Below are positions 18,024-37,622 of a stretch of 38,051 nucleotides of DNA, piece after piece (the stretch's first letter is position 1; each line of letters starts with the position of its first letter). The stretch comes from Chloroflexi bacterium RBG_16_68_14 (GTDB lineage: Bacteria > Chloroflexota > Dehalococcoidia > DSTF01 > RBG-16-68-14), in assembly GCA_001796995.1 (NCBI GenBank), contig MGOB01000041.1, positions 17,588 to 55,638 on the forward strand. Reading direction: 5' to 3'. The notes below the pieces were generated by a model. The model saw only the letters and a program-made list of their open reading frames with translations. It was not told the origin of the DNA and searched no databases. The position numbers and the translations under genes are program-made.

Positions 18024-19610
18024 ATGCCCGACGCTACCTTCGACGCGATCATCATCGGCGCAGGCCACAACGGGATGGCCCTGGGCACCTACCTGGCCAA
18101 ATGCGGCTGGGAGGTGGCGATCTTCGAGAAGCGGACCGAGGAGGGCGGCGGCCTTTGCACGGAGGAGCTGACCCGGCCCGGCTTTCTCCACAACGTCCAC
18201 TGCAACTACCACACGCTGGTGGGCGTCTGCCCGGTGTACGACGACCTGGACCTCTATAGCCACGGCCTGGAGTACATCCACCCGCCGGTGCAGATGGGCA
18301 GCGTCTTCCCGGACGGCACCGCTCTCACTGTGCACGCCGACATCGATAAGACGTGCGCCTCCTTCGCCCGCTTCTCCGAGAAGGACGCGGAGACCTTCCG
18401 GCGGCTGCACGACGAGGTGAAGGGCTACCTGGACCTCATCCTGCGCACGCTGATGTACTCGCCTCCTATTCCGTTGCTGGACATCACCAAGGCGCTGGTG
18501 GTCTGGAAGGTGGCGGAGAAGTCGGAGTTTCTCAGCGTCCACTTGCGCAACATGACCATCACCCAGTTCCTGGACGAGCATTTCGAGAACGACAAGATCA
18601 AGGCCCAGCTCGCCTTCCAGGCCGCCATCTCCGGCTATTCTACGGACCGTAAGGGGCTGGGCGTCTCCTTCCCCCTCCTGGTGGGCAAGATGGACAACTG
18701 GCACGTCTGCGTCGGCGGCTCCCACCAGCTCGCCCACGCTCTGTGGGAAGCCTTCGCCCACGCCGGCGGAAGCGTCTTCCTCAACACGCCCGTGGCCGGC
18801 ATCCTCACCGAGAACGGAAAGGCCACCGGCGTCCGGCTCTACGACGGGAGCGAGGTGCGGGCGCGCCACGTCGTCGCCAGTACCATCGACCTGGAGCAGA
18901 CCTTCCTGAAGATGCTCCCCCGGGAGCGGCTGGCGAGCGAGCTGGTCCAGCAGGTGGAGCAGTACCCGCACATGGACTGGTCCTACTACAGCGTGCACCT
19001 GGCCCTGCGGGAGCCGCCCCAGTACCGGGCCGCCGAGTTCGACCCGGACATCCAGCAGGCCTGGGTGCTGAACGTCGGCTACGCCAACCTGGACGATCTG
19101 AACCAAGAGTGGAAGACGGTTCGTGCGGGCAAGCTGCCTGACCCCAAGCCCAACTGCGCCGTGAACACCCTCTTCGACCCGTCGGACGCGCCCGACGGCT
19201 ACTACACCGGCCTCATGCGCCAGTTCGCGCCCATCGGCATCGGCAAGGGCGGCTTCGAGGCCTGGGATGAGATGGCCAACCCCTACGGCGAGCGCTGCAT
19301 CGACGCTTGGAACGAGTACGCCCCTAATATCAAGCAGGCCATCATCGAGTGGGTGCCCTACACGCCCCTGGACATCTCGCGGCGGCTGATCAACATGGTG
19401 CGGGGCGATTGGATGAGCGGTCTCATCGACCTGAACAACCTGCTGACGGAGCGGCCCTTCCCTGACCTGTCCCAGTACCGGACGCCCTTCCAGGGACTCT
19501 ACATGTCCGGGGCCACCCAGCACCCCCACGGCTTCATCACCTTCGCGCCGGCCTACAACGCCCTGCAGGCCATCGCGGAGGATCACAAGTTGGAGCGATG
19601 GTGGCAGTGA
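18024..19610 (+). CDS. FAD/NAD(P)-dependent oxidoreductase, phytoene-desaturase (CrtI/COG1233) type, paralog 1
   Basis: The track ORF starts at 17787. I place the start at ATG 18024, preceded by AGGAGGTGG, giving MPDATFDAIIIGAGHNGMALGTYLAKCGWEVAIFEKRTEEGGG (GxGxxG-x17-E dinucleotide fold). About 528 aa. C-terminal GLYMSGATQHPHG. Confidence 0.85.
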   Translation: MPDATFDAIIIGAGHNGMALGTYLAKCGWEVAIFEKRTEEGGGLCTEELTRPGFLHNVHCNYHTLVGVCPVYDDLDLYSHGLEYIHPPVQMGSVFPDGTALTVHADIDKTCASFARFSEKDAETFRRLHDEVKGYLDLILRTLMYSPPIPLLDITKALVVWKVAEKSEFLSVHLRNMTITQFLDEHFENDKIKAQLAFQAAISGYSTDRKGLGVSFPLLVGKMDNWHVCVGGSHQLAHALWEAFAHAGGSVFLNTPVAGILTENGKATGVRLYDGSEVRARHVVASTIDLEQTFLKMLPRERLASELVQQVEQYPHMDWSYYSVHLALREPPQYRAAEFDPDIQQAWVLNVGYANLDDLNQEWKTVRAGKLPDPKPNCAVNTLFDPSDAPDGYYTGLMRQFAPIGIGKGGFEAWDEMANPYGERCIDAWNEYAPNIKQAIIEWVPYTPLDISRRLINMVRGDWMSGLIDLNNLLTERPFPDLSQYRTPFQGLYMSGATQHPHGFITFAPAYNALQAIAEDHKLERWWQ

Positions 19611-20137
19611 CGAACACCTTCTCCGACAATGGAGCGCTCCCCGTCACCGTCGCCGCCGGCGACGAGGCGAGCGGCCTGGCGCGGATCATCGCCCAGTATC
19701 TGGAGCAGATCCTGGGCGACTCGCCGGAGAAGCGGGCCGAGGCCGCGGCGTTGCGCGGCCGCCTGGGCCTCCTCGCCCGCGAGGGCGATGTGGCCGTCAC
19801 GATCGTCTTCGAAGACGGCGGCATCGCCATCGAGGAGGGGCTCCAGGAGCCGGATGCCGTCGTGAGCGGCGAAGTCGAGTTCTTGATGCACCTCCTGGCC
19901 GGCCGGGCGAACCTCGCCTGGGAGGTGTGCGGGGGGACCGTGGCCTTCCGGCCCGACCTCCGGCGTCCACTGTTCGGCTATCAGGCGTACCGCTTGATGC
20001 GCCTGCCGGGCGTGCATCTGTGGAGCGGACTGCCGCGCCCGCCAGCGCGCGCGGTGGTGGTGACGGCGGTCGTCGTTGGTGCCGTGCTGCTGGCGTGGCG
20101 CGCCCGTAGCCGGAGTACGGGAGGTGCACATGGCTGA
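19598..20137 (+). CDS. SCP2 (sterol-carrier-protein-2)-like domain protein with a C-terminal hydrophobic anchor
   Basis: 179 aa. GDVAVTIVFEDGGIAIEEG...DAVVSGEVEFLMHLLAGRANLAWEVCGGTVAFRPD matches the SCP2 pattern. C-terminal ARAVVVTAVVVGAVLLAW is a predicted TM segment. Overlaps both flanking genes. Confidence 0.6.
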   Translation: MVAVTNTFSDNGALPVTVAAGDEASGLARIIAQYLEQILGDSPEKRAEAAALRGRLGLLAREGDVAVTIVFEDGGIAIEEGLQEPDAVVSGEVEFLMHLLAGRANLAWEVCGGTVAFRPDLRRPLFGYQAYRLMRLPGVHLWSGLPRPPARAVVVTAVVVGAVLLAWRARSRSTGGAHG

Positions 20138-21746
20138 GGCGACCTTCGATGCGGTGATCATCGGTGCGGGCCACAACGGGCTCACGCTGGGAGCGTACCT
20201 GGCGAAGGCAGGTCTCTCCGTCGGCATCTTTGAGGGCCGGCACGAGGACGGCGGCGGCGCCAACACGGAGGAGGCCACCGTCCCCGGCTTCCACCACAAC
20301 CTCCATGCCCAGTACATGGAGTTCATCGACTACATGCCCATCTACCACGACTTCCGGTTGGAGAAGATGGGCGCCCGCATGATCTACCCGGACGTGCAAC
20401 TGGGCATCACCTTCGCCGACGGCCGGCCGCCCATCATCATCTATCGGCCCGATCCCGAACTGGAGAAGAAGACGCACCAGAGCATCGCCCAGTACTCCAA
20501 GCACGACGCCGACACCTGGTGCGATCTGAAGCGCAAGGTGATGGAGCGGGACCGGGTGATGGCTGGCTTCCTGTACAGGGCTCCGGAGGCCGAGGACGAT
20601 GAGCAGGGCGCAATGGCAACCATGGGCGGCGTCATGGGCCTTGCCGCCGAACTGGGCCTCACGATGACCGACTTCGGCAAGGCGCCCAAAGTGATCATCG
20701 ACCGGCTCTTCGAGTCCACTGAGCTGAGGGCGCTGCTCTACCGTCAGTGTGTCGAGTGGGGGAGCAACGTGCACGCCGGCAACGGCTTTGGCTTCGTCCT
20801 CTCTGTCCTCTGGTTGAGTGCCATCCACAAAATGTCGGTCGGTGGCACCCACACCCTGGCTCACGCCATGGCCAACGCCTGCCTGAAGCAGGGGGCCTGT
20901 ATCCGCTACGGCAAGCCGGTGGTGAAGATCCTGCTGAAGGACGGCCGCGCGACCGGCATCCAGCTCAAGGACGGGACGGAGATCGAGGCCAAGCTGCTCG
21001 TCGCCTCCAACGTCGACCCCAGGCAGACCTTCATCAACTTCATCGGCGAGGAGAACTTGGAAGCGTTCCGGCGCGAGCGGCTGGCCAACTGGCGCTTCGG
21101 GCCTGAGCACGTCCTGGGCACACCCTCCTTTGCCCTCCACCAAGCCCCGGCCTACAAGTCGGCCCGTCATAACCCGGACATCGACCGCTGCTTCTACACG
21201 GTCGTCGGCTTCGAGACGGCGGAACAGATGTCGGAGTACATCATCCAGGCCTACGGCGGCGCCATTCCGGACCGGCCGGGCGCAGGCACCTGGGTCAACT
21301 CCCTCTGGGACCCCACCCAGGCGCCGCCCGGCAAGCACGCCATGAACGGCTGGTTCTTCTTCCCCAAAGCCTCGTGCCTGACGCCGGAGGAATGGGACGA
21401 CGTACGCGCCACCTACAACGACCGATTCCTCAAGCTGTGGGCCGAGTACGCCCCCAACATGACCCGCGAGAACGTCATCGCCGACCGGCTCTATACGGCC
21501 TTCGATATCGAGAAGAAGATCGGCATGCCGGAGGGCGACTTCTCCCACGGACGCCCCGGAGGCGGCACAGGCATGGTCGGCGCCAGGGGCTACCAGTACC
21601 GGACCGAGTTCCCCGGCCTATATCTGTGCGGTGCGTCGGCCGGCGGTGGGGGCATCAGCGCCGCGCCCGGCTACAACGCCTTCAAGGTGATCTGCCACGA
21701 CTACAAGCTGCCCAAGGTGTGGCAGCAGGAATGTCGGGACTACTAA
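20130..21746 (+). CDS. FAD/NAD(P)-dependent oxidoreductase, phytoene-desaturase (CrtI/COG1233) type, paralog 2
   Basis: Start placed at ATG 20130 (SD GGGAGGTG), giving MAEATFDAVIIGAGHNGLTLGAYLAKAGLSVGIFEGRHEDGGG. Colinear similarity to the 18024 gene throughout (for example PGFHHNLHAQY vs PGFLHNVHCNY, and GLYLCGASAGGGG vs GLYMSGATQHPHG). Confidence 0.85.
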   Translation: MAEATFDAVIIGAGHNGLTLGAYLAKAGLSVGIFEGRHEDGGGANTEEATVPGFHHNLHAQYMEFIDYMPIYHDFRLEKMGARMIYPDVQLGITFADGRPPIIIYRPDPELEKKTHQSIAQYSKHDADTWCDLKRKVMERDRVMAGFLYRAPEAEDDEQGAMATMGGVMGLAAELGLTMTDFGKAPKVIIDRLFESTELRALLYRQCVEWGSNVHAGNGFGFVLSVLWLSAIHKMSVGGTHTLAHAMANACLKQGACIRYGKPVVKILLKDGRATGIQLKDGTEIEAKLLVASNVDPRQTFINFIGEENLEAFRRERLANWRFGPEHVLGTPSFALHQAPAYKSARHNPDIDRCFYTVVGFETAEQMSEYIIQAYGGAIPDRPGAGTWVNSLWDPTQAPPGKHAMNGWFFFPKASCLTPEEWDDVRATYNDRFLKLWAEYAPNMTRENVIADRLYTAFDIEKKIGMPEGDFSHGRPGGGTGMVGARGYQYRTEFPGLYLCGASAGGGGISAAPGYNAFKVICHDYKLPKVWQQECRDY

Positions 21747-21759
21747 CAGGGAGTGGGAC

Positions 21760-22221
21760 ATGCCGGCTATCTATACACGTCCGTGGTACGACAACATGAA
21801 GGAGATCCTCAACCGCAGCGATGAGGTGACCAAGAACGCGCCCCGCGGGGTGTGGCACGTGCTGGCCGAGATCCGGGGCGACGGTGTCTCGCCCTACATG
21901 GCGGCTGATGAGGTGAAGCGCTTCGCTATCGTCCTCAATGACGGCAAGTGCGATAGCTACGAGGAGCTGACGGAGGCGCCGCCTCGCAAGGACTTCGAGT
22001 TCATCCTGGAGCTGCCCGCCGCCCTCTTCGAGCAGATCGTGGCCAATCAGACGGACCCGGTGGAGTCCGGCCTCAAGGGCGCCATCAAGATTATCGGCGA
22101 CATGCGGGTGATGATCCAGAATGCGGAGCTGGTGAATGTCCTCTCGGACATCTACCAGCGCGAGGTGGAGACGGAGTGGCCCAAGGGGATGCCCCCCTAC
22201 TCGACAGGAGGTGCGCGATGA
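21760..22221 (+). CDS. SCP2-like small protein
   Basis: 153 aa. DFEFILELPAALFEQIVANQTDPVESGLKGAIKIIGDMRVMIQNAELV fits the C-terminal SCP2 pattern (G-x-hydrophobic-K-hydrophobic-x-G-D). No signal peptide or TM segment. Confidence 0.55.
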   Translation: MPAIYTRPWYDNMKEILNRSDEVTKNAPRGVWHVLAEIRGDGVSPYMAADEVKRFAIVLNDGKCDSYEELTEAPPRKDFEFILELPAALFEQIVANQTDPVESGLKGAIKIIGDMRVMIQNAELVNVLSDIYQREVETEWPKGMPPYSTGGAR

Positions 22222-24995: not shown

Positions 24996-25010
24996 GAAAG
25001 GAGCACAGTC

Positions 25011-25661
25011 ATGCTGGTAAAGCGCGTCGACGCCAAGAAGGAGGAGCTGCTGGACCCGGCTGGCGCCGCCTGGCGCAAGAGCCGCGGTAGCAAGGTGGTC
25101 CTTTCGCCCACTCCCCTGGACATACAGCCGACGGAGTACGTCCGCGTCTCCTGGCGGGGACGCCCCTACGGCAAGGTCCCCAGCATGCGGGTGAGCGCCC
25201 TCCACAACGGCCGCGACATCTTCTTCCGCCTGGTGTGGGAGGACGATTCCGCGGACAGCAAGATCGCCGATACCAACCAGTTCGTGGACGCCGTCGCCGT
25301 GCTCTTCCCGATTGCCGCTGACGCCCCCCTCATCGGCATGGGGATCAAGGGGAAGCCGGTGAACGCCTGGTTCTGGCGCGCCGACTGGGAGCAACCGAAG
25401 AACGTGGCCGCCGAGGGCATGGGCACGACACAGCGTCGCGATGACCCCGCCCTCGCCGCCAAGGCACGGCACACGCGCGGCCAGTGGGACGTGGTCATCT
25501 CGCGCTCGCTGAACGGGAAGCGGGCGCCCAAGGGCACGGCGACCTTGCAGGCGGGCACGATATCCAAGATCGCCTTCGCCATCTGGCAGGGCGCCAACCA
25601 GGAGCGGGCCGGCATCAAGGCCTTCTCTCTGGACTGGCAGGAGCTACAGATCGAGGCGTAA
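25011..25661 (+). CDS. Heme-b gamma subunit (EB_dh / ethylbenzene-dehydrogenase gamma-like domain), no signal peptide
   Basis: 216 aa. MRVSALHNGRDIFFRLVWEDDSAD...DAVAVLFPIAADAPLIGMGIKGKPVNAWFWRADWE matches the EbdC/SerC/DdhC-type domain pattern, including the MG heme-ligand context. Confidence 0.75.
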   Translation: MLVKRVDAKKEELLDPAGAAWRKSRGSKVVLSPTPLDIQPTEYVRVSWRGRPYGKVPSMRVSALHNGRDIFFRLVWEDDSADSKIADTNQFVDAVAVLFPIAADAPLIGMGIKGKPVNAWFWRADWEQPKNVAAEGMGTTQRRDDPALAAKARHTRGQWDVVISRSLNGKRAPKGTATLQAGTISKIAFAIWQGANQERAGIKAFSLDWQELQIEA

Positions 25662-32013: not shown

Positions 32014-32027
32014 CGAGGAGGTCTGTC

Positions 32028-33125
32028 ATGCCAGCGAGACGATCAGGGACTGCTCCCCTGAAGCAGGTGGCGATGGTCTTTGACCTGAACAAGTGCATGG
32101 GCTGCCAGACCTGTTCCGTCGGGTGTAAGGTGCTCTGGACCCAGGAGGAGGGCGAGGACTACCAGTGGTGGTGCTCGGTCAACACCATGCCTGGCCGCGG
32201 CTACCCCAAGGACTGGGAGGGAATGGGCGGCGGCGCCAGGCAGGACGGCCGCGCCCTCGCCGGTCGTCTGCCTTCGCGGGCGGAGTTCGGCGGCGGCTGG
32301 CAGTACAACTACGAGGAGGTGTACACCAGCAAGGAGCACATTCCCCTCCGGCCCATCGACGGCAACGGCACCACCCAGTGGGGCCCCAACTGGGACGAGG
32401 ACGAGGGCGGCGGCCGGTGGCCCAACAGCTACTTCTTCTACCTGCCCCGCCTGTGCAACCACTGCACCCGCCCTGTCTGCCTGGAGGCCTGCCCGCGCGG
32501 CGCCATGTACAAGCGCCCCAAGGACGGCATCGTCCTGCGGGACGAGGATGAGTGTCGGGGCTACCGCTTCTGCATGGAGGCCTGCCCCTACAAGAAGATC
32601 TACTTCAACCTGGCGCGGCAGGTGAGCCAGCAGTGCATCCTGTGCTTCCCGCGCCTGGAGAGAGGGGTGGCGCCGGCCTGCGCCCGCCAGTGCCCCGGCC
32701 GCCTCGTCTTCGTTGGCTACGTCGACGACGAGGATGGTCCCATCAACCAGCTGGTCTACCGCTGGCGGGTGGCGCTGCCGCTCCACCCGGAGTACGGCAC
32801 CGGCCCCAACATCTTCTACATCCCGCCCCTGGCGCCCTACCGGCTCAACGCCGACGGCAGCCTGGACGAATCGACGCCGCGCATCCCCATGCAGGAGCTG
32901 GAGCAGCTCTTCGGCCCCCAGGTGGGACGGGCGCTGGCCACCCTGAAGCGAGAGATCGCGAAGAAGCGACGCGGCGAGGCATCGGAGCTGATGGACACCC
33001 TCATCGCCTACCACTGGAACGAGCTGCTGGGCCCCTGGACGCGAGACCCGGCCACCATTCGCTGGCTTCGTCCTGAGGCTTCGTCCCGAGGCTCAGCCCG
33101 AAGGGCTCAGCCCGAAGGGCGCTGA
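32028..33125 (+). CDS. Fe-S beta subunit 2 (NarH/EbdB-like)
   Basis: Start placed at ATG 32028 (SD GAGGAGG). Contains VAMVFDLNKCMGCQTCSVGCK, CNHCTRPVCLEACP, CRGYRFCMEACPYKKIYFN and CILCFPRLERGVAPACARQCP. About 365 aa and colinear with beta1. Confidence 0.9.
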   Translation: MPARRSGTAPLKQVAMVFDLNKCMGCQTCSVGCKVLWTQEEGEDYQWWCSVNTMPGRGYPKDWEGMGGGARQDGRALAGRLPSRAEFGGGWQYNYEEVYTSKEHIPLRPIDGNGTTQWGPNWDEDEGGGRWPNSYFFYLPRLCNHCTRPVCLEACPRGAMYKRPKDGIVLRDEDECRGYRFCMEACPYKKIYFNLARQVSQQCILCFPRLERGVAPACARQCPGRLVFVGYVDDEDGPINQLVYRWRVALPLHPEYGTGPNIFYIPPLAPYRLNADGSLDESTPRIPMQELEQLFGPQVGRALATLKREIAKKRRGEASELMDTLIAYHWNELLGPWTRDPATIRWLRPEASSRGSARRAQPEGR

Positions 33126-33174
33126 GGCCCAAGGCGACGCCGCTTGCCGGGGCCTCAGCGTCAAGAGGGACGAG

Positions 33175-36100
33175 ATGTCACGTAAGCGCGAGCGGCAGCA
33201 GGACGCGGCCCCGGGCGGTGGAACGCCTCCGCTTCTGGGCCAGCCCGTCACCCGCCGGGGCTTCCTCAAGGGCGCCTCGCTGGGTGCGGCCGCCCTCTAC
33301 CTGACCCAGCTCGGCTGCCGGGGCGGCGAGGAAGGCATCCGCCGCGTCGTCGCGCAGCCCTACCTCTACGGCGACTGGACAGATCTCTACCGCCAGAAGT
33401 GGCGGTGGGACAAGGTCACCTGGGGCACCCACCTCATCGACTGCTACCCGGGCAGTTGCCTCTTCCGCGTCTACACCAAGGACGGCATGGTCTGGCGGGA
33501 GGAGCAGGCGGGCCGCTACCCGGAGATAGAGCCCGGCGTGCCCGACATGAACCCGCGCGGCTGCCAGAAGGGCTCCTGCTTCAGCGACGTCATGTACGGG
33601 CCGGAGCGGCTGCGCTACCCCCTGCGCCGGGTGGGCGAGCGGGGCTCCGGCCAGTGGGAGCGCATCTCCTGGAAGGAGGCGCTCACCGACGTGGCCGACG
33701 GCATCCTCGACGCCCTGGAGGAGGTGGGGCCGGAGTCCGTCATCTATGAACTCCCCCCCGGCAACGGCGGCATCGTCAACGGGCCGCTGCCCGGCTGGCG
33801 CCTCAGCCGGCTTATCGGCGCGACGGTGCTCGACTCCAACGGCATGGTCGGTGACTTCAACGTCGGCCTCTACGAGACCTTCGGCAAGTTCCAGTTCGTC
33901 TCCTCCATCGACGACTGGTTCCACGCCGACCTGATCCTGGTCTGGCACATGAACCCGGTCTACACCCGCATCCCCAGCGTCCACTTCGTCTACGAGGCGC
34001 GCTACCACGGGACGAAAGTGGTCAATATCGCTCCGGACTACAACGCCTCCAGCGTCCACGCCGACCTCTGGGTGCCAGTGGAGCCGGGCTCGGACGCCGC
34101 GCTGGCGCTGGCCATGTGCCGCATCATCATCGACGAGGGGTGGGTGAACCGGGAGTTCGTGGTGGAGCAGACCGACCTGCCCCTTCTGGTCCGCCTGGAC
34201 ACGCAGCGCTTCCTCCGCCAGACGGACCTGGCCGGCGAGGGCGAGGAGGCGCGCGACGACCAGTTCTACGTCTGGGATGAGGCGTCCGGCGGCCCCGCAC
34301 CCGCGCCCAGGGACACGTTGCGGATGAATGCGCGTCCAGCGCTGGAGGGGCGCTTCGCCGTCACCCTGGCCAGCGGCGAGCAGGTGGACGTGACACCCGT
34401 GTTCGAGCTCCTGCGCGAGCGTCTGGCCGACTACACGCCGGAGCGGGCGGCATCCATCACCGGCGTCCGGCCGTCGGTGATCCGGCGGCTGGCCCGGATG
34501 GTCGCCGAGGCGAAGCGGGTGCACATCCTCCAGGGCTGGAACGTGAACAAGTACTACCACGGCGACCTGATGGAGCGATCGCAGGCGCTCCTGCTCGCCC
34601 TCACCGGCAACTTCGGCCGCAAGGGCACCGGCATGCGCGGGTTCAACAGCGCCCAGCTCCAGGTGGGGACGGTGGTGAAGGACCATGCCGGCATCGAGGG
34701 GTTCATCGAGCTGGCCGACCGCGCGCTGGACGTCGAGGAGGAGCTGCTCCAGGAGGACCCGACGCTAACGGAGGAGATGCGCGCCATTGGCATTGAGCAG
34801 GCCGAGGCCCAGCGGCGGGTGCTCTTCCCCTACGACGTGGGGCCGCTGACGGTGCCCGCCGCCTTCTACTGGTACTGGCACGCCGGCTACAAGGACGTCT
34901 GGGACGGCCACCCCGACTGGTCGGACCCAGCCATGAATCGGCCGCTCGGCGAGTACCTCGACGAGGCGGTCTCGAAGGGCTGGTGGGAGGGCGTCGCCCT
35001 GCCGCAGAAGGACCGGCCGCCTCGCGTCCTCCTGGAGGTGGCCGTCTCCACGCTGCGCCGCACCCGGGGCGGCTACAAGGTCCTGCGCGAGCATCTCTGG
35101 CCCAAGCTCAAGCTCATCGTGGCCGTCGACGTGCGGATGAGTAGCACCGCCCGCCAGGCCGACATCGTGCTGCCGGCGGCCGGCTTCTACGAGAAGACGG
35201 ACTTCCGCTTCCCGGTCACGGACGTAAACTTCCTGACGTTCACCGAGCAGGCCGTCAAGCCGGTAGGACAGTCGAAGCCGGAGTGGGAGATCTTCACGCT
35301 GCTGGCCCGCAAGATCCAGGAGCGTGCCCTGGCCCGCGGCGTGACGAAGGCGTCCGACGCCGCCGGCCGCGAGTTCCCGCTCGACAAGCTGGTGGAACGG
35401 TTCACCATGCACGGCGCGGTGCGCGAGCGCGACGGCGACGCCCTGGCCGAGGACATCGTGCGGGACACGGTGCGGGTGGGCGCGCTGCCGGAGCGGACAA
35501 CGCTCAAGACCTTCCGGAAGCAGGGCATCGTCCGCTTCACCGGCCTGGGGCAGACCGGCGGGGGCCTCAACCTCGCGACCGACATCAAGCCCGACGAGAC
35601 GGTGTCGCCCCTGCGCTGGCACGGCGAGCGGCAGGTGCCCTACCCAACGCTTACCCGTCGCATCCAGTTCTACATCGACCATGATTGGTTCCTGGAGGGG
35701 GACGAGGCGCTGCCCCGTCACAAGCCCAACCCCCAGATGGGGGGCTCGCACCCGCTGCGCATGACCAGCGGCCACCTCCGCTGGAGCATCCACTCTACCT
35801 GGGTGGCGAACAGGCTGATGCTCTACACCCACCGGGGCGGACCGTTCCTCATGATGTGCCCGGAGGATGCAGAGGCGAGAGGGCTCGCCGACAACGACGA
35901 GGTGCGTGTCTACAACGACTTCGACGAGTTTCGCGTGCGCATCAAGCTCTCGCCGTCCGTGCGGCCTGGCCAGGTGATCATCTACCATGCCTGGGAGCCC
36001 TACCAGTACCGCAACTGGAAGCCGTACGATACGGCGATACCGGGCATGATCAAGTGGCTGCACCTGGCGGGCGGCTACGGCCACCTGAAGTTCTGGCGCG

Positions 36101-36177
36101 ACAACTGGCAGCCCCAGCAGGCGGACCGCGCCATCGCGGTCGAGGTGGAGAAGGCGGCCGGGGAGGGAGCGGTCTAG
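33175..36177 (+). CDS. Type II DMSO-reductase-family catalytic alpha subunit 3 with a twin-arginine (Tat) signal peptide
   Basis: 1000 aa. Leader reads ...GQPVTRRGFLKGASLGAAALYLTQLGC. Then WTDLYRQKWRWD. FS0 motif H86-x3-C90-x4-C95 plus NPRGCQKG. Putative Mo-ligand Asp227 in VGDFNVG (GAC at 33853-33855). By eye it is closest to alpha2. Confidence 0.9.
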   Translation: MSRKRERQQDAAPGGGTPPLLGQPVTRRGFLKGASLGAAALYLTQLGCRGGEEGIRRVVAQPYLYGDWTDLYRQKWRWDKVTWGTHLIDCYPGSCLFRVYTKDGMVWREEQAGRYPEIEPGVPDMNPRGCQKGSCFSDVMYGPERLRYPLRRVGERGSGQWERISWKEALTDVADGILDALEEVGPESVIYELPPGNGGIVNGPLPGWRLSRLIGATVLDSNGMVGDFNVGLYETFGKFQFVSSIDDWFHADLILVWHMNPVYTRIPSVHFVYEARYHGTKVVNIAPDYNASSVHADLWVPVEPGSDAALALAMCRIIIDEGWVNREFVVEQTDLPLLVRLDTQRFLRQTDLAGEGEEARDDQFYVWDEASGGPAPAPRDTLRMNARPALEGRFAVTLASGEQVDVTPVFELLRERLADYTPERAASITGVRPSVIRRLARMVAEAKRVHILQGWNVNKYYHGDLMERSQALLLALTGNFGRKGTGMRGFNSAQLQVGTVVKDHAGIEGFIELADRALDVEEELLQEDPTLTEEMRAIGIEQAEAQRRVLFPYDVGPLTVPAAFYWYWHAGYKDVWDGHPDWSDPAMNRPLGEYLDEAVSKGWWEGVALPQKDRPPRVLLEVAVSTLRRTRGGYKVLREHLWPKLKLIVAVDVRMSSTARQADIVLPAAGFYEKTDFRFPVTDVNFLTFTEQAVKPVGQSKPEWEIFTLLARKIQERALARGVTKASDAAGREFPLDKLVERFTMHGAVRERDGDALAEDIVRDTVRVGALPERTTLKTFRKQGIVRFTGLGQTGGGLNLATDIKPDETVSPLRWHGERQVPYPTLTRRIQFYIDHDWFLEGDEALPRHKPNPQMGGSHPLRMTSGHLRWSIHSTWVANRLMLYTHRGGPFLMMCPEDAEARGLADNDEVRVYNDFDEFRVRIKLSPSVRPGQVIIYHAWEPYQYRNWKPYDTAIPGMIKWLHLAGGYGHLKFWRDNWQPQQADRAIAVEVEKAAGEGAV

Positions 36178-37622
36178 TGGCGCTCCTCGACGTTGGCCGC
36201 GAGACGTTGGCCCGCCGCCTGCCTCTCCAGTTCGACGAACTGGAGCGGACGACGGCCGGCGCCCTGGCCGCCCCCGACCGGCCCCTGGGCGTTCGAGGCC
36301 ACCTGGCGCTCTGGGCCAATCTTGGCTCCGGCCTCTATCTGCTGGTCGTCGGCGCCTGGCTGGTGCCGGCGCTGAGCATTCCCCAGGCCGTCATCGCCGC
36401 CCTCATCGGGGCCGGGCTGGGCGCGGCCCTGGTGGCCGTGGCGGTGCGCCTGGGCGCCGCCGAGAACCGGCCGGGCGTCGTCCTCCACCGAGGCGTCCTC
36501 GGCGAATCGGGCGCGCACCTCTACGGCGCTCTCGCCTGCTTCCGTCACCTGGCCTGGGGCGCGCTCCAGCTCGCCATCGCCGCCGAGCTGGCGGCGGCGG
36601 TAATGGGCCGCCAGGGCCTGGGCGGCGGCCGGCCTTTGTGGGCGGCCATCTTCGGCGCGCTGGTGCTGCTCATGGTGCTCGCCGGGCCGGCCACGGTGAC
36701 CCGGCGCTGGCTGGTGCCCAGCGCCCTGCTCACGCTGCTCATCGCCGTCGTCTTCACCTACTCGGCCTGGTCCGACTTCGGCGTGCCGACGATGCTCCTC
36801 CGGGAGGCGAGCGGCGGCTGGCCGAGCATGACCGCGGCCGTCGATATCGTAGCCGCGGTGGCCCTCATCTGGCTGCCCGTCGCGACCGACCTGGGGCGGC
36901 TGGGCAAGCCTCGCCGTGCCGGTATGGCCGCCTTCGCCGGGCTGGCGGGGATGACGGCCTGGTTCGTGCTCCTGGGGGTCCTGTTCATCCCTGCCGTCAA
37001 TGGGCGCGACCTGGCAGGCTTCCTGCTGGCGACGCCGGCCGGAGCCCTGGCGCTGCTCCTGGTGATCGTGCTGGAGCTGGACGGCGCCTTCGTCAGCCTC
37101 TACGGGCTGGCCTCCACGGCGCGCGCCTGGGCGCCCAAGGCGGACGCCGCCCTGCCCGCCGTCGTCGGCGGCGCGGCGGTCTTCGTCCTGGGCGCGGCCT
37201 TCATCGACCCCTTCGACTACGGCGACGCCCTCCTGCTGCTGGGGGCGGCGTTCGCGCCCCTGCTGGGCGTGTTGCTGGGCTTCCGAGCGGTACGCCATTG
37301 GTGGCTCCGGGCATCCGCGAAGACACGGCTGCTGCCCGACGGGCGGGTCGAGATCATCGCCGGGAGCATATCGCCGCCGGCGCCGGGTGGCGCCGTGGCC
37401 TGGGCGCTGGGCTTCCTGCTGTATAATTGGGCGGCGCCATTAGAGCTGCCCGCCTGGACGGCGGCGATGTCGGCTCTGTTCCATGACTTCCTCGGTCTCC
37501 CCTTCCCGGCCGACGTCCCCGGCCTGAGCGCCACCGCTCTCGGCTTCGTGGTCGCGTTCGTGGTCGCCGTGGGTACAGCGGGGCTGTGGCTTCGACGGTC
37601 GGCGCTACGTGAGGGCTCCTGA
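36177..37622 (+). CDS. Polytopic membrane transporter, possibly purine-cytosine permease (NCS1)-like
   Basis: The track ORF starts at 35685 inside alpha3. I place the start at GTG 36177 (GGGGAGGGAG 7 nt upstream; TAGTG overlap with the alpha3 stop). About 481 aa with roughly 12 hydrophobic segments. The family call rests only on weak resemblance (LWANLGSGLYLLVVGAW). Confidence 0.5.
   Translation: MALLDVGRETLARRLPLQFDELERTTAGALAAPDRPLGVRGHLALWANLGSGLYLLVVGAWLVPALSIPQAVIAALIGAGLGAALVAVAVRLGAAENRPGVVLHRGVLGESGAHLYGALACFRHLAWGALQLAIAAELAAAVMGRQGLGGGRPLWAAIFGALVLLMVLAGPATVTRRWLVPSALLTLLIAVVFTYSAWSDFGVPTMLLREASGGWPSMTAAVDIVAAVALIWLPVATDLGRLGKPRRAGMAAFAGLAGMTAWFVLLGVLFIPAVNGRDLAGFLLATPAGALALLLVIVLELDGAFVSLYGLASTARAWAPKADAALPAVVGGAAVFVLGAAFIDPFDYGDALLLLGAAFAPLLGVLLGFRAVRHWWLRASAKTRLLPDGRVEIIAGSISPPAPGGAVAWALGFLLYNWAAPLELPAWTAAMSALFHDFLGLPFPADVPGLSATALGFVVAFVVAVGTAGLWLRRSALREGS

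What the first reader, a model, noticed from the sequence alone, without database searches (positions are those of the whole stretch)
18024..37622. A 19.6-kb, 15-gene operon combines CrtI-type flavoenzymes, SCP2 lipid-carrier domains and three ethylbenzene-dehydrogenase-like molybdoenzymes
Seen in the sequence: from the SD and ATG at 18024 to the stop at 37622, every gene is on the plus strand. Junctions are overlaps (19598/19610, 20130/20137, ATGA at 22218, 26741 and 28522, TAGTG at 36177) or gaps of 3-49 nt, so this reads as one transcription unit. Content: two copies of a module made of a ~530-aa GxGxxG FAD oxidoreductase (phytoene-desaturase type) and a small SCP2-like protein. These are followed by alpha1-gamma-beta1-delta of an Asp-liganded type II DMSO-reductase-family enzyme, MobB-FmdE, MobA, alpha2-beta2, Tat-alpha3 and a permease. 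Established knowledge: this enzyme subfamily (ethylbenzene dehydrogenase, p-cymene dehydrogenase, steroid C25 dehydrogenase) hydroxylates unactivated C-H bonds using water rather than O2. In Sterolibacterium several alpha paralogs are reported to share beta/gamma subunits. SCP2 domains bind sterols and lipids. Inference: the flanking genes are thiolase, CoA-transferase, acyl-CoA dehydrogenases, a redox-type GAF kinase and modABC. Together with them, the locus looks like an O2-independent pathway for a bulky hydrophobic substrate (isoprenoid, steroid, carotenoid-like or long alkyl). In it, lipid-carrier proteins and CrtI-type desaturases/oxidases are coupled directly to the Mo hydroxylases. I do not know of a characterised system with this composition.
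Basis: partly seen in the sequence, partly recalled or inferred. Interest (0 to 1): 0.85.

Follow-up and report, generated by a model that had tools for sequence, protein, structure and literature searches.

The report
Anaerobic lipid-oxidation operon: flavoenzyme, carriers, molybdoenzymes
An uncultured aquifer Chloroflexi bacterium has one tightly packed 14-gene operon joining two enzyme families that oxidise inert C-H bonds with water instead of oxygen to two small lipid-carrier proteins; the enzyme pairing is already known from anaerobic plant-sterol breakdown, but the carrier-containing, largely cytoplasmic version is uncharacterised and occurs in several phyla.

Summary
From 18024 to 37622 there are 14 co-directional ORFs, not 15, because MobB-FmdE is one fused ORF. 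Junctions run from -13 to +49 nt. Every domain assignment was reproduced.

The source is Chloroflexi bacterium RBG_16_68_14.

"CrtI-type" is too coarse for the two flavoproteins. They are full-length relatives (29-32% identity, 153-229 bits) of the delta24-steroid desaturase of Sterolibacterium. The histidines that carry its covalent FMN align with His59 of both window proteins.

Both small proteins are SCP2-like. The model of one matches solved SCP2 structures (TM 0.70-0.82).

Alpha2 and alpha3 group with ethylbenzene dehydrogenase (94% bootstrap). Alpha1 forms its own type II clade.

Alpha1 and alpha2 lack Tat signals, unlike the characterised hydroxylases whose N-termini were checked.

The flavin-SCP2-flavin-SCP2 cassette recurs in Dehalococcoidia, Binataceae, Actinomycetota and other lineages. 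About a third of those loci have EBDH-like genes within 10 kb.

The most likely function is oxygen-independent oxidation of an isoprenoid-type lipid, feeding beta-oxidation.

The flavin-plus-molybdenum pairing was characterised in 2024. This is therefore a new variant of a known kind, not a new kind. The substrate is unknown.

The parts
17709..18023 (.). Divergent intergenic region between the thiolase (-) and FAD1 (+), with candidate operator repeats
   Evidence: There are 3-4 copies of the palindrome GGGCCATNNGGCCC (17874, 17908, 17935, 17958) and 3 copies of TATAGATCACG. The palindrome recurs at 10860 and 3383. That makes 7 matches in the window against 0.92 expected. A regulatory role is inferred only.
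18024..19610 (+). FAD1: 528-aa flavoprotein subunit of the CtmAB / delta24-steroid-desaturase family
   Evidence: Pfam DAO, Amino_oxidase and NAD_binding_8. CrtO model 241 bits and crtI_fam 87.5 bits, both far below cut-off. 32% identity and 229 bits, full length, to the delta24-SD beta subunit. Motif GFLHNVHC at residues 53-60, with His59 aligned to the FMN-bearing His57/His58. His59 is invariant in orthologs.
19598..20137 (+). SCP2a: 179-aa SCP2-like protein with a C-terminal hydrophobic helix
   Evidence: Pfam SCP2 at 24.2 bits, above the 21.3 cut-off. 10 of 11 family members hit SCP2. The C-terminal hydrophobic helix followed by basic residues is conserved in Chloroflexi orthologs. The single-sequence model is poor apart from helix 150-174.
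20130..21746 (+). FAD2: 538-aa paralogous flavoprotein subunit
   Evidence: 34% identical to FAD1. 29% identity, 172 and 153 bits, to delta24-SD beta and alpha. Motif GFHHNLHA with His59 aligned to the flavinylated histidines.
21760..22221 (+). SCP2b: 153-aa soluble SCP2-fold protein
   Evidence: Pfam SCP2 at 21.1 bits (cut-off 21.3). 17 of 18 family members hit SCP2. The AlphaFold2 model (pLDDT 73, pTM 0.68) matches Thermus SCP2 1wfr/2cx7 at TM 0.70-0.82, E 1e-8. The top 46 Foldseek hits are all SCP2 proteins or SCP2-like domains, including UbiJ. It is a compact family of 64 representative clusters.
22218..24995 (+). alpha1: 925-aa Mo-bisPGD catalytic subunit, Tat-less, in its own type II DMSOR clade
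   Evidence: Molybdopterin and Molydop_binding domains. TIGR03479 at 962 bits, just below the 985 cut-off. 609 bits to EbdA against 592 to PcrA. Its own clade has 100% bootstrap. The Asp ligand and the Lys equivalent to Lys450 are kept, and the FS0 motif is CNRADCIAAC. There is no Tat signal and no room for one; relatives at or below 59% identity (where named: Binatia, Deltaproteobacteria) have Tat signals. 100% identical to a protein of Chloroflexi bacterium RBG_16_68_14.
25011..25661 (+). gamma: 216-aa heme b subunit (EbdC-like)
   Evidence: EB_dh domain, and TIGR03477 at 178 bits against a cut-off of 170. 148 bits to EbdC (2ivf_C), with the axial heme ligands Met108 and Lys201 conserved.
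25680..26744 (+). beta1: 354-aa iron-sulfur subunit
   Evidence: Fer4_11, and TIGR03478 at 505 bits against a cut-off of 481.
26741..27406 (+). delta: 221-aa TorD/EbdD-type assembly chaperone
   Evidence: Nitrate_red_del. TIGR03482 at 172 bits against a cut-off of 152.
27410..28525 (+). MobB-FmdE-zinc-finger fusion (371 aa), Mo cofactor maturation
   Evidence: MobB 146 bits, FmdE 128 bits, zf-dskA_traR 32 bits in one ORF. The mobB equivalog scores above cut-off. The fusion keeps its position in L001 and has a 63%-identical counterpart near the cassette in L021.
28522..29178 (+). MobA-like guanylyltransferase (218 aa)
   Evidence: NTP_transf_3 at 120 bits.
29182..32013 (+). alpha2: 943-aa EBDH-clade catalytic subunit, Tat-less
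   Evidence: 792 bits to EbdA against 503 to PcrA. 43% identity to EbdA. Groups with EbdA at 94% bootstrap. The ORF starts at the first possible codon after an in-frame stop, so there is no Tat leader.
32028..33125 (+). beta2: 365-aa iron-sulfur subunit
   Evidence: Fer4_11 at 101 bits. The start codon was chosen at ATG 32028, which follows GAGGAGG.
33175..36177 (+). alpha3: 1000-aa EBDH-clade catalytic subunit with a Tat signal
   Evidence: 804 bits to EbdA against 522 to PcrA. TIGR03479 at 991 bits against a cut-off of 985. Twin-arginine motif TRRGFLKG. Asp223 and Lys450 equivalents are kept; the His192 equivalent is absent.
36177..37622 (+). Polytopic membrane protein, weakly NCS1/CytX-like (481 aa)
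   Evidence: No Pfam hit. TIGR02358 at 116 bits and TIGR00800 at 47 bits, both below cut-off. Its GTG start overlaps the alpha3 stop codon.
16485..17708 (-). SCPx / lipid-transfer-type thiolase, divergent from the operon
   Evidence: Thiolase_N and Thiolase_C_1. Best NCBIfam matches are 'thiolase domain-containing' and 'lipid-transfer protein' models. Conserved next to the cassette in L001 and L013.
9385..16457 (.). Flanking acyl-CoA genes: two acyl-CoA dehydrogenases (9385-10662 -, 11026-12222 +), Fer4/CCG iron-sulfur protein (12357-13604 +), two-subunit CoA-transferase (about 13802-15633 -), nitroreductase-family protein (15630-16457 -)
   Evidence: Pfam and NCBIfam. The ACADs, thiolase and nitroreductase keep their synteny in L001.
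3433..9293 (-). LuxR-type response regulator (3433-4089), GAF-HisKA_3 kinase (4089-5435), ModC/B/A molybdate transporter (6532-9293)
   Evidence: Pfam. ModA at 134 bits (cut-off 62.5) and ModB at 230 bits (cut-off 183). An A-type Fe-S assembly protein lies at 5583-5948 (-).

Best explanation
The operon encodes an oxygen-independent 'activation module' for a poorly soluble isoprenoid-type lipid. The likely substrate is a sterol or hopanoid side chain or another terpenoid with allylic or tertiary C-H bonds.

Shown by sequence:
- FAD1 and FAD2 are paralogous subunits of a flavoenzyme of the limonene-dehydrogenase / delta24-steroid-desaturase family. Each keeps the histidine that carries covalent flavin in the characterised enzyme.
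- SCP2a and SCP2b are SCP2-fold proteins. SCP2a has a C-terminal hydrophobic helix.
- Three Mo-bisPGD alpha subunits are present with two Fe-S beta subunits, one heme b gamma subunit, a TorD-type chaperone, MobA and a MobB-FmdE fusion. A molybdate transporter is encoded nearby.

Inferred:
1. The SCP2 proteins extract the lipid from the membrane and present it to the enzymes.
2. The flavoenzyme oxidises an allylic position, either by desaturation to a conjugated diene or by water-dependent hydroxylation.
3. The Mo enzymes then hydroxylate allylic or tertiary carbons with water, and may oxidise the alcohol further, as S26DH1 does.
4. The alpha paralogs serve different steps or substrates. Two act in the cytoplasm (alpha1, alpha2, no Tat signal) and one outside it (alpha3, Tat signal).
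5. The resulting acid is converted to a CoA ester by the adjacent CoA-transferase. It is then shortened by the acyl-CoA dehydrogenases and the SCPx-type thiolase.
6. Electrons leave through heme b and Fe-S proteins.
For: Family membership of the flavoproteins:
- FAD1 and FAD2 align over their full length with delta24-SD alpha and beta (29-32% identity, 153-229 bits). That is stronger than delta24-SD alpha against beta (136 bits).
- Their His59 aligns with the FMN-linked His57 and His58.
- The motif GF.HN.H(A/C) is kept in every ortholog of at least 47% identity that carries a glycine at the first position; one (FAD1 of L020) reads EFNHNLHS.

Characterised precedent: in Sterolibacterium this flavoenzyme produces the allylic substrate for the Mo-dependent S26DH2 (PMC11061730).

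SCP2 proteins: the fold of SCP2b is supported, and both families hit Pfam SCP2.

Mo enzymes:
- Alpha2 and alpha3 group with EbdA at 94% bootstrap, away from ClrA, a Cld-linked PcrA-like protein and haloarchaeal NarG.
- The Asp ligand, the Lys450 equivalent and the heme b Met/Lys ligands are conserved.
- His192 of EbdA is absent, as reported for S25DH (PMC6153880).
- Gamma precedes beta in the window (alpha1-gamma-beta1-delta), as in the gamma3-beta3 fragment of S25DH (PMC6016249).

Conserved linkage:
- The cassette lies within 10 kb of EBDH-like genes in Dehalococcoidia (L001, L021, L038), Binataceae (L003), a 'deltaproteobacterial' MAG (L047), Actinomycetota (L015, L037) and L090, with different gene orders.
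- In Actinomycetota the cassette sits beside closer delta24-SD homologs (40% to beta in L013 and L015, 51% to alpha in L025).

Neighbours are beta-oxidation-type genes.
Against: - No substrate, transcript or activity data exist. The source is an uncultured MAG.
- The window contains no steroid-ring degradation genes, aldehyde dehydrogenase or enoyl-CoA hydratase.
- Roughly two thirds of cassette loci have no EBDH-like gene within 10 kb. The coupling is therefore frequent but not obligatory.
- A cytoplasmic heme-b-containing EBDH-like enzyme has no obvious electron acceptor.
- Delta24-SD and CtmAB work without any reported SCP2 partner, so the carrier role is inference.
- The SCP2 Pfam scores sit at the threshold.
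Confidence: 0.6

Rival explanations
1. The chemistry is the same but the substrate class differs. The operon degrades small terpenoid or alkyl-aromatic hydrocarbons of the limonene, phellandrene, p-cymene or ethylbenzene type. The flavoenzyme would act as a limonene-dehydrogenase-like allylic methyl hydroxylase. The Mo enzymes would act as p-cymene or ethylbenzene-dehydrogenase-like benzylic hydroxylases.
For: CtmAB, the other characterised member of the flavoenzyme family, hydroxylates monoterpenes and sits next to an acetyl-CoA acetyltransferase, an acyl-CoA dehydrogenase and a LuxR regulator (PMC4109377). Alpha2 and alpha3 are 42-43% identical to EbdA and group with it. Plant terpenes are plausible substrates in aquifer sediment and soil.
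Against: Two dedicated SCP2-fold carriers argue for a large, membrane-partitioned lipid rather than a volatile C10 compound. His192 of EbdA is missing in all three alphas. The EbdA equivalog model scores 646-848 bits against a cut-off of 2000. In Actinomycetota the cassette lies next to closer homologs of the steroid desaturase. There are no ctmEF-type ferredoxin or reductase genes in the window.
Confidence: 0.2
2. A biosynthetic or lipid-remodelling system rather than catabolism. A CrtO-like flavoenzyme with SCP2 carriers and Mo hydroxylases would introduce hydroxyl or keto groups, without O2, into the cell's own isoprenoid lipids (carotenoids, quinones, hopanoid-like lipids). This would be analogous to the SCP2 proteins UbiJ and UbiT in ubiquinone biosynthesis.
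For: The best NCBIfam match of FAD1 and FAD2 is the beta-carotene ketolase CrtO, over the full length (241 and 170 bits). The SCP2b model also matches UbiJ-SCP2. UbiT (an SCP2 protein) works with O2-independent hydroxylases (PMC6747719).
Against: The CrtO score is far below the 1000-bit cut-off, and cyanobacterial CrtO-like homologs carry Cys rather than His at the flavin site. No carotenoid, quinone or hopanoid biosynthesis genes are present. Conserved neighbours are acyl-CoA dehydrogenases, thiolases, CoA-transferases and enoyl-CoA hydratases. Three Mo enzymes plus a CoA-transferase fit degradation better.
Confidence: 0.1
3. The Mo enzymes are respiratory or detoxifying oxyanion reductases (nitrate, chlorate, selenate) or nitrite oxidoreductase-like enzymes. 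They would merely be co-located with an unrelated flavoprotein/SCP2 cassette.
For: Alpha1 scores almost equally against EbdA (609 bits) and perchlorate reductase (592 bits), and is 36-37% identical to ClrA and haloarchaeal NarG. Its clade is unplaced. In L090 the cassette neighbours a 1182-aa NarG/Nxr-sized alpha. Met/Lys-ligated heme b also occurs in Ser, Clr and Ddh enzymes (my knowledge).
Against: Alpha2 and alpha3 fall with EbdA, away from ClrA, the PcrA-like protein and NarG (94% bootstrap). There is no chlorite dismutase or nitrate/nitrite transporter. Translational coupling (ATGA overlap SCP2b/alpha1) and recurrent linkage in at least five lineages with rearranged gene order argue for a functional link. 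One alpha1-clade member carries an IMG annotation as steroid C-25 hydroxylase.
Confidence: 0.07

Closest known systems
Delta24-steroid desaturase (alpha4beta4, covalent FMN) acting before Mo-dependent steroid C26 dehydrogenase 2 in stigmasterol degradation by Sterolibacterium denitrificans (Zhan et al., J Biol Chem 2024, PMC11061730)
   Same: Both have two paralogous CrtI-superfamily flavoprotein subunits encoded side by side. FAD1 and FAD2 are 29-32% identical to them over the full length, and the flavin-binding histidine and surrounding GF..N.HA motif are conserved. In both cases the flavoenzyme is functionally paired with an EBDH-group Mo hydroxylase that uses water, and the pathway feeds beta-oxidation of an isoprenoid chain.
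   Different: Identity is only about 30%, so this is a distinct subfamily. Both window subunits resemble the beta subunit more than the alpha. Two SCP2-fold genes are interleaved, which is not reported for delta24-SD. Flavoenzyme and Mo enzymes are in one operon here, whereas adjacency is not reported in Sterolibacterium. Two of the three Mo alphas lack Tat signals, whereas all eight Sterolibacterium alphas have them. The substrate here is unknown.
Limonene dehydrogenase CtmAB of Castellaniella defragrans (ctmABCDEFG; PMC4109377)
   Same: A heteromeric flavoenzyme of the same family, sharing the covalent-flavin consensus (as stated in PMC11061730). It performs O2-independent oxidation of an allylic methyl group with water. 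Its neighbourhood has a thiolase, an acyl-CoA dehydrogenase and a LuxR-type regulator.
   Different: No ctmE/ctmF ferredoxin or reductase genes are present here. ctmC and ctmD are small hypothetical proteins of unknown fold, and I could not test whether they are SCP2-like. CtmAB is not linked to Mo enzymes. I had no CtmA or CtmB sequences for a direct comparison.
Ethylbenzene dehydrogenase, p-cymene dehydrogenase and steroid C25/C26 dehydrogenases (type II DMSO-reductase family hydroxylases)
   Same: Alpha/beta/gamma/delta gene set; Asp Mo ligand; Lys450 equivalent; FS0 cluster motif; Met/Lys heme b; TorD-type chaperone. There are more alpha than beta/gamma genes, as in Sterolibacterium. Alpha2 and alpha3 group with EbdA.
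   Different: The alphas are not orthologs of EbdA: 37-43% identity, and 646-848 bits against an equivalog cut-off of 2000. His192 is absent. Alpha1 and alpha2 lack the Tat leader. Alpha1 has Cys instead of His at the first FS0 position and forms a separate clade. MobA and MobB-FmdE are embedded in the operon.
UbiJ/UbiT SCP2 proteins of ubiquinone biosynthesis (UbiT with the O2-independent hydroxylases UbiU/UbiV; PMC6747719)
   Same: A small SCP2-fold protein dedicated to presenting an isoprenoid lipid to hydroxylases, including O2-independent ones. The SCP2b model matches the UbiJ-SCP2 structure.
   Different: That system is biosynthetic, not catabolic. The hydroxylases are unrelated (U32 peptidase family). 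There is no sequence-level relationship beyond the fold.
CrtO-type beta-carotene ketolase and CrtI phytoene desaturase
   Same: Same flavoprotein superfamily and overall length. CrtO is the best NCBIfam match. These enzymes also act on allylic carbons of isoprenoids.
   Different: Scores are far below both family cut-offs (241 against 1000; 87.5 against 238). Only about 30 bits against solved CrtI and CrtD. CrtI-like homologs have GF.FD.G or Cys in place of the His motif. They are monomeric and bind FAD non-covalently, as stated in PMC11061730.

Membership tests
CtmAB / delta24-steroid desaturase family of heteromeric covalent flavoenzymes | Full-length sequence similarity to a characterised member | tested here: met
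   FAD1 scores 229 and 194 bits, and FAD2 172 and 153 bits, against delta24-SD beta and alpha over about 520-550 residues. Delta24-SD alpha against beta scores 136 bits.
CtmAB / delta24-steroid desaturase family of heteromeric covalent flavoenzymes | Histidine for covalent flavin attachment within G-F-L/R-X-N/S-T/L-H-A near the N terminus | tested here: met
   FAD1 has GFLHNVHC and FAD2 has GFHHNLHA at residues 53-60. His59 aligns with the FMN-linked His57 and His58 and is invariant in orthologs.
CtmAB / delta24-steroid desaturase family of heteromeric covalent flavoenzymes | Two paralogous subunits encoded together | tested here: met
   FAD1 and FAD2 are 34% identical, 0.5 kb apart, and always paired in related loci.
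CtmAB / delta24-steroid desaturase family of heteromeric covalent flavoenzymes | Covalently bound flavin and allylic C-H oxidation activity | not testable with these tools
   Needs purified protein.
Phytoene desaturase family (TIGR02734 crtI_fam) / CrtO ketolase (NF045689) | Score at or above the curated family cut-off | tested here: not met
   crtI_fam scores 87.5 and 57.2 bits against a cut-off of 238. CrtO scores 241 and 170 bits against a cut-off of 1000. Solved CrtI and CrtD score only 28-33 bits.
SCP2 sterol-transfer fold (PF02036) | Pfam gathering score | tested here: inconclusive
   SCP2a scores 24.2 bits (passes 21.3). SCP2b scores 21.1 bits (just below). 10 of 11 and 17 of 18 family members hit at E <= 0.01.
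SCP2 sterol-transfer fold (PF02036) | Alpha/beta SCP2 fold | tested here: met
   Tested for SCP2b only. The model (pLDDT 73) matches 1wfr and 2cx7 at TM 0.70-0.82, E 1e-8, and the top 46 hits are all SCP2 proteins or SCP2-like domains. The SCP2a model is too poor to test.
SCP2 sterol-transfer fold (PF02036) | Binds a lipid in a hydrophobic tunnel | not testable with these tools
   Needs binding assays or a liganded structure.
Type II DMSO-reductase family (EBDH/Ser/Clr/Ddh/Pcr/Nar group) | Mo-bisPGD alpha subunit with an Asp ligand and an N-terminal FS0 cluster motif | tested here: met
   Molybdopterin and Molydop_binding domains in all three alphas. The Asp223 equivalent is conserved. H-x3-C-x4-C in alpha2 and alpha3; C-x4-C-x3-C in alpha1. 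TIGR03479 scores 991 bits (alpha3, passes 985), 962 (alpha1) and 941 (alpha2), the last two slightly below.
Type II DMSO-reductase family (EBDH/Ser/Clr/Ddh/Pcr/Nar group) | Fe-S beta subunit, heme b gamma subunit, TorD-type delta chaperone | tested here: met
   TIGR03478 at 505 bits (cut-off 481), TIGR03477 at 178 (cut-off 170), TIGR03482 at 172 (cut-off 152). Heme ligands Met and Lys are conserved.
Type II DMSO-reductase family (EBDH/Ser/Clr/Ddh/Pcr/Nar group) | Tat signal on alpha (periplasmic members) | tested here: not met
   Alpha3 has TRRGFLKG. Alpha1 and alpha2 have no leader and no upstream coding room. All eight Sterolibacterium alphas, CmdA, the EbdA sequences and the EbdA-like proteins visible in the table excerpt have a Tat motif.
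Hydrocarbon-hydroxylating subgroup (EbdA / CmdA / S25dA / S26dA) | Phylogenetic grouping with characterised hydroxylases rather than oxyanion reductases | tested here: inconclusive
   Alpha2 and alpha3 group with EbdA at 94% bootstrap. Alpha1 is in a separate 100%-supported clade of unresolved position. The tree lacks S25dA, S26dA, CmdA, SerA and DdhA.
Ethylbenzene dehydrogenase proper (NF042978 EbdA equivalog) | Equivalog cut-off and catalytic His192 | tested here: not met
   646, 848 and 844 bits against a cut-off of 2000. The position equivalent to His192 is not His in any alpha.

The most novel reading that the evidence does not exclude
The four-gene cassette (flavin subunit, SCP2, flavin subunit, SCP2) would be a self-contained, cytoplasmic 'lipid-extraction and activation' machine found in at least five lineages: Dehalococcoidia, Binataceae, Actinomycetota, Abyssobacteria and 'deltaproteobacterial' MAGs. 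In Chloroflexi it would have recruited Tat-less, cytoplasmic EBDH-type Mo hydroxylases. The SCP2 proteins would hand a membrane isoprenoid from one O2-independent C-H-oxidising enzyme to the next. On this reading the locus marks a widespread, unrecognised route for anaerobic turnover of sterol, hopanoid or polyprenyl lipids in anoxic sediments and aquifers.
Probability: 0.25. Interest if true: 0.8.

Novelty: new variant of a known kind. Interest (0 to 1): 0.62.

Why it matters
How sterols, hopanoids and other isoprenoid lipids are degraded without oxygen matters for carbon turnover in sediments and aquifers and for the preservation of lipid biomarkers. The biochemistry rests almost entirely on one denitrifying betaproteobacterium, Sterolibacterium.

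This locus shows the same two water-dependent C-H-oxidising enzyme families fused into one operon in an uncultured subsurface Chloroflexi bacterium. It differs from the known system in two ways:
- dedicated SCP2 lipid carriers, and
- Mo hydroxylases without export signals.

The carrier-containing cassette recurs in several phyla that are abundant in soils, sediments and sponges.

If the function is confirmed, it would extend anaerobic isoprenoid or sterol oxidation to monoderm and uncultured lineages. It would add a substrate-delivery component to the known pathway. It would also supply new water-dependent hydroxylases and desaturases of biocatalytic interest; S25DH is already used for 25-hydroxyvitamin D3 synthesis.

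If the substrate turns out to be an ordinary terpene, the finding is a modest extension of known pathways.

Tried and rejected
1. Exact-sequence look-ups of window proteins (FAD1, alpha3, and the identical alpha1 hit P0121) found no contig on record. I could not read beyond the window. The organism was identified only through the 100% hit name.

2. I could not obtain full sequences of S25dA1-8, S26dA, CmdA, SerA, DdhA, CtmA or CtmB. Only Tat N-termini are in the supplement of PMC7411048. The alpha tree therefore uses EbdA (transcribed from the PDB alignment), ClrA, a Cld-linked PcrA-like protein and haloarchaeal NarG from plasmid records. Alpha1 remains unplaced.

3. SCP2a and SCP2b show no BLAST similarity to each other and only a weak profile-profile match (probability 37%). 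I treat them as two separate SCP2 branches, not duplicates.

4. The single-sequence AlphaFold model of SCP2a was too poor for a fold search (pLDDT 52).

5. The sigma-70 promoter and terminator scan was uninformative for this high-GC organism.

6. The candidate operator palindrome is not found in the 90 related loci. Its role is unsupported by conservation.

7. Four literature searches for a described [CtmAB-like + SCP2 + EBDH-like] system found none. This covers only the open-access library.

8. I considered calling the flavoproteins CrtO ketolases, which is their best NCBIfam hit. I rejected this on score, on the His-versus-Cys motif and on genomic context.

9. I considered whether alpha1's missing Tat leader is a start-codon artefact. 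I rejected this because the preceding gene overlaps its start (ATGA), and 49 of the 50 closest relatives (62-100% identity) also lack a leader by the regex test; the exception, P0148 (67%), has a start that differs but no Tat call.

Full report
**Observation**

The window is 67% G+C. On the + strand between 18024 and 37622 I find 14 ORFs, each with a plausible start and usually a GGAGG-like ribosome-binding site. A consensus scan finds no excess of internal promoter-like or terminator-like sites: 0 against 1.3 expected, and 7 against 6.5. That scan has little power in this kind of organism.

The count of 15 genes is one too many. MobB, FmdE and a DksA/TraR zinc finger are one fused 371-aa ORF. 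A single transcription unit is therefore well supported by spacing, but it has not been shown. Alpha1 is 100% identical to a protein of 'Chloroflexi bacterium RBG_16_68_14' on a 58-kb contig, so the source is an uncultured aquifer-sediment Chloroflexi MAG.

**Domain assignments**

- The two ~530-aa proteins carry an N-terminal GxGxxG Rossmann motif and hit DAO, Amino_oxidase and NAD_binding_8.
- The two small proteins hit Pfam SCP2 at 24.2 and 21.1 bits (cut-off 21.3).
- The three ~925-1000-aa proteins have Molybdopterin and Molydop_binding domains.
- Gamma is EB_dh / TIGR03477, above cut-off.
- Beta1 is TIGR03478, above cut-off.
- Delta is TIGR03482, above cut-off.
- MobA and MobB are clear.
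- The last gene is a polytopic membrane protein with weak NCS1/CytX similarity.

The flanks were also confirmed:
- an SCPx/'lipid-transfer'-type thiolase;
- a nitroreductase-family protein;
- a two-subunit CoA-transferase;
- a Fer4/CCG iron-sulfur protein;
- two acyl-CoA dehydrogenases;
- ModA and ModB (both above equivalog cut-offs) with a ModC-like ATPase below its cut-off;
- a GAF-HisKA_3 kinase with a LuxR-type regulator;
- a phage-type integrase at the left end.

**What the flavoproteins really are**

'Phytoene-desaturase type' is true only at superfamily level. FAD1 and FAD2 score far below the curated crtI_fam cut-off (87.5 and 57 bits against 238) and the CrtO cut-off (241 and 170 against 1000). 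They reach only about 30 bits against solved CrtI and CrtD.

A literature search led to Zhan et al. 2024 (PMC11061730). That paper describes a delta24-steroid desaturase of Sterolibacterium denitrificans built from two paralogous subunits, each with FMN covalently bound to a histidine in the consensus G-F-L/R-X-N/S-T/L-H-A. It states that limonene dehydrogenase CtmAB shares this consensus.

FAD1 carries GFLHNVHC and FAD2 carries GFHHNLHA at residues 53-60. The paper's supplement gives both desaturase sequences, which allowed a direct comparison.
- FAD1 is 32% identical (229 bits) to the beta subunit and 30% (194 bits) to the alpha subunit.
- FAD2 is 29% identical to each (172 and 153 bits).
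- All these alignments are full length and stronger than desaturase alpha against beta (136 bits).
- The FMN-bearing His57 and His58 align with His59 of both window proteins.

His59 is invariant in the 18-sequence alignment, which includes FAD2. It is also present in every ortholog of at least 47% identity in the fetched loci. More distant CrtI/CrtO-like homologs have other residues there. I therefore file FAD1/FAD2 as a distinct subfamily of the CtmAB / delta24-SD family of flavoenzymes that oxidise allylic C-H bonds. Covalent flavin and activity are inferred.

**The SCP2 proteins**

The two small proteins are not detectably similar to each other, but each family consistently hits Pfam SCP2: 10 of 11 and 17 of 18 members.

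An AlphaFold2 model of SCP2b from a 28-sequence alignment has pLDDT 73 and pTM 0.68. It matches Thermus thermophilus SCP2 (1wfr, 2cx7) with TM 0.70-0.82 and E about 1e-8. The best 46 Foldseek hits are all SCP2 proteins or SCP2-like domains, including UbiJ-SCP2.

SCP2a ends in a hydrophobic helix followed by basic residues. This feature is conserved in Chloroflexi, but Binataceae have an amphipathic basic tail instead. Its single-sequence model was too poor to use.

SCP2b belongs to a compact family: only 64 clusters at 50% identity in 1.84 billion representatives reach E <= 0.001. It is thus a cassette-specific branch of the fold.

**The molybdoenzymes**

Scores against solved structures:

| Subunit | EbdA (bits) | Perchlorate reductase (bits) |
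|---|---|---|
| alpha2 | 792 | 503 |
| alpha3 | 804 | 522 |
| alpha1 | 609 | 592 |

I built a neighbour-joining tree (921 columns, 100 bootstraps). It used EbdA (transcribed), ClrA, a Cld-linked PcrA-like protein, haloarchaeal NarG and homologs from related loci.
- Alpha2 and alpha3 group with EbdA (94% bootstrap), apart from ClrA.
- Alpha1 lies in its own 100%-supported clade, whose position is unresolved.
- The tree lacks S25dA, S26dA, CmdA, SerA and DdhA, which I could not obtain.

Active-site and cofactor features:
- All three alphas keep the Mo-ligating Asp and the Lys equivalent to EbdA Lys450.
- None has EbdA His192. A review notes the same absence for S25DH (PMC6153880).
- Alpha1 has a Cys in place of the His at the first FS0 position.
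- Gamma keeps the Met/Lys heme ligands of EbdC.
- Gamma precedes beta in the window (alpha1-gamma-beta1-delta), as in the gamma3-beta3 fragment amplified for S25DH (PMC6016249). The same paper confirms that Sterolibacterium has fewer beta/gamma than alpha genes.

**An unexpected feature: missing Tat signals**

Only alpha3 has a twin-arginine leader. Alpha1 and alpha2 have none, and there is no coding room for one.

Within the alpha1 clade, 49 of the 50 closest relatives (62-100% identity; named ones are Chloroflexi or Dehalococcoidia) lack a leader. The more distant ones (where named: Binatia, Deltaproteobacteria) mostly have it.

Cassette-linked alphas are also Tat-less in L001 and L038 (Chloroflexi), L015 (Actinomycetes) and L003 (Binataceae). 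The one in L047 has a leader.

By contrast, all eight Sterolibacterium alphas, CmdA, the EbdA sequences and the EbdA-like proteins visible in the table excerpt, including Desulfococcus oleovorans Hxd3, carry Tat motifs (supplement of PMC7411048). Cytoplasmic EBDH-type enzymes, next to a cytoplasmic flavoenzyme and SCP2 proteins, are therefore a real difference from the characterised systems. The electron acceptor for a cytoplasmic heme-b complex is unexplained.

**Conservation elsewhere**

FAD1 has homologs of 60-90% identity in MAGs named as Chloroflexi, Acidobacteria, Myxococcota, Binataceae and Abyssobacteria.

In 80 loci from species-representative genomes plus contigs from the protein collection:
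- The order FAD1-SCP2a-FAD2-SCP2b recurs in Dehalococcoidia, Binataceae, 'deltaproteobacterial' and unclassified MAGs.
- Actinomycetota have FAD2-SCP2b-FAD1.
- EBDH-like genes lie within 10 kb in L001, L003, L015, L021, L037, L038, L047 and L090, and a beta-like gene in L011. That is roughly a third of the loci with enough flank, and the gene orders differ. Since EBDH-like genes are probably rare in most genomes (not measured here), this recurrence looks well beyond chance, but the link is not obligatory.
- The cassette-then-alpha1 adjacency of the window is repeated in L038 and L047.
This is an inference.
- In Actinomycetota the cassette sits directly beside closer homologs of the steroid desaturase: 40% identity to beta in L013 and L015, and 51% to alpha in L025.
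- Other recurrent neighbours are acyl-CoA dehydrogenases, thiolases, CoA-transferases, enoyl-CoA hydratases and TetR regulators.

**Mechanism proposed**

*Shown:* the family memberships, motifs and gene linkage described above.

*Inferred:*
1. The SCP2 proteins, one probably membrane-tethered, extract a hydrophobic isoprenoid-type lipid and present it to the enzymes.
2. FAD1/FAD2 oxidises an allylic position, either by desaturation (as in delta24-SD) or by hydroxylation with water (as in CtmAB).
3. The Mo enzymes hydroxylate allylic or tertiary carbons with water, and perhaps oxidise the alcohol further, as S26DH1 does (PMC7411048).
4. The alpha paralogs handle different steps or substrates, on the two sides of the membrane.
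5. The acid is activated by the CoA-transferase and shortened by the acyl-CoA dehydrogenases and the SCPx-type thiolase.
6. Delta, MobA, MobB-FmdE and the molybdate transporter supply the cofactor.

I put about 0.6 on this general reading.

*Rivals:*
- The same chemistry on small terpenes or alkylbenzenes (0.2).
- A biosynthetic lipid-modifying role by analogy with CrtO and with UbiJ/UbiT (0.1).
- Unrelated oxyanion reductases co-located by chance (0.07).

**Comparison with what is known, and novelty**

The closest characterised system is the Sterolibacterium stigmasterol route, in which a flavin delta24-desaturase of this family feeds a Mo-dependent C26 hydroxylase (PMC11061730). The central idea, a CrtI-superfamily flavoenzyme coupled to EBDH-type hydroxylases for O2-independent oxidation of an isoprenoid chain, has therefore been described since 2024.

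I could not find the following described in the open-access literature:
- the two SCP2-fold proteins interleaved with the flavoprotein subunits, as a four-gene cassette conserved across phyla;
- the physical fusion of that cassette with three Mo alphas and Mo-cofactor maturation genes in one operon;
- Tat-less members of the EBDH group.

The nearest functional precedent for a dedicated SCP2 partner is UbiJ/UbiT in ubiquinone biosynthesis (PMC6747719).

I rate this a new variant of a known kind, with interest about 0.6. It is a coherent, testable and widespread but uncharacterised system. It could extend anaerobic sterol or isoprenoid oxidation to uncultured subsurface lineages. Its substrate is unknown, and its core chemistry is already established.

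Noticed in passing
window 17755-17971; also 10860-10873 and 3383-3396: The divergent promoter region upstream of FAD1 holds 3-4 copies of the palindrome GGGCCATNNGGCCC and three copies of TATAGATCACG. The palindrome also occurs between the two divergent acyl-CoA dehydrogenase genes and next to the LuxR-type regulator gene. That makes 7 matches against 0.92 expected. It may be an operator that ties these units into one regulon. It is absent from the 90 related loci.
   Followed up: partly
window 1585-2724 (+): A phage-type tyrosine integrase (Phage_integrase plus an N-terminal SAM-like domain) lies at the left end of the window, preceded by a 310-aa ORF (656-1588) with no Pfam hit. The locus might lie on or next to a mobile island. 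I did not examine tRNA genes, att sites or the G+C profile for this purpose.
   Followed up: no
window 27410-28525 (+): MobB is fused to an FmdE domain and a DksA/TraR-type C4 zinc finger in one ORF. The fusion has counterparts near the cassette in the related Chloroflexi loci L001 and L021. FmdE is normally associated with Mo/W formylmethanofuran dehydrogenase, so its role in maturing these enzymes is unexplained.
   Followed up: partly
window 22218-24995 (alpha1), N-terminal residues ~43-53: The first ligand position of the FS0 iron-sulfur motif is Cys (C-N-R-A-D-C-I-A-A-C), not the His found in EbdA, ClrA, NarG, alpha2 and alpha3. The motif recurs in those alpha1-clade homologs whose displayed N-terminal 60 residues reach it.
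   Followed up: partly
L013 4030-11578; L015 4233-11593; L025 6183-21568: In Actinomycetota the FAD2-SCP2b-FAD1 cassette is immediately preceded by another pair of family members. These are closer to the Sterolibacterium delta24-desaturase (about 40% identity to beta). The Microthrixaceae locus L025 also holds a gene 51% identical to the desaturase alpha subunit. These organisms thus carry several paralogous systems side by side.
   Followed up: partly
L089 14525-15535; L088 17277-20384: In an Abyssobacteria contig the cassette is followed by an APH-family phosphotransferase. In another MAG it lies near a luciferase-like protein and a two-subunit CoA-transferase. In Sterolibacterium the 25-hydroxysteroid kinase is a phosphotransferase that co-purified with phytoene-dehydrogenase-like and luciferase-like proteins (PMC8449060). 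This is a speculative hint of shared context.
   Followed up: no
L090 690-13922: In GCA_900174565.1 the two flavoprotein/small-protein pairs are arranged divergently. They sit beside a 1182-aa (NarG/Nxr-sized) Mo alpha, a beta, a 343-aa EB_dh gamma, a delta, an acyl-CoA dehydrogenase and MobB. The cassette therefore also associates with a different subtype of type II enzyme.
   Followed up: no
P0197 (alpha1-clade homolog) N terminus: Its Tat leader (…SRREFLLAGGSALTLSLCHLRW…) resembles that of the uncharacterised, 'rather distantly related' Sterolibacterium paralog alpha8/DH8 (DRRSFLKAGGSALALSLCHLELL; supplement of PMC7411048). This is a weak lead that the alpha1 clade may correspond to DH8. 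Similar ALxLSL patterns occur in other EBDH-like leaders.
   Followed up: no
window 37753-38051 (+): A partial ORF after the permease gene runs off the end of the window. It has no Pfam hit for the 99 residues available. Whether it belongs to the unit is unknown.
   Followed up: no
window 5583-5948 (-): An A-type Fe-S cluster assembly protein (Fe-S_biosyn) lies between the sensor kinase and the molybdate transporter genes. This fits the heavy Fe-S demand of the Mo enzymes, but I did not examine it further.
   Followed up: no
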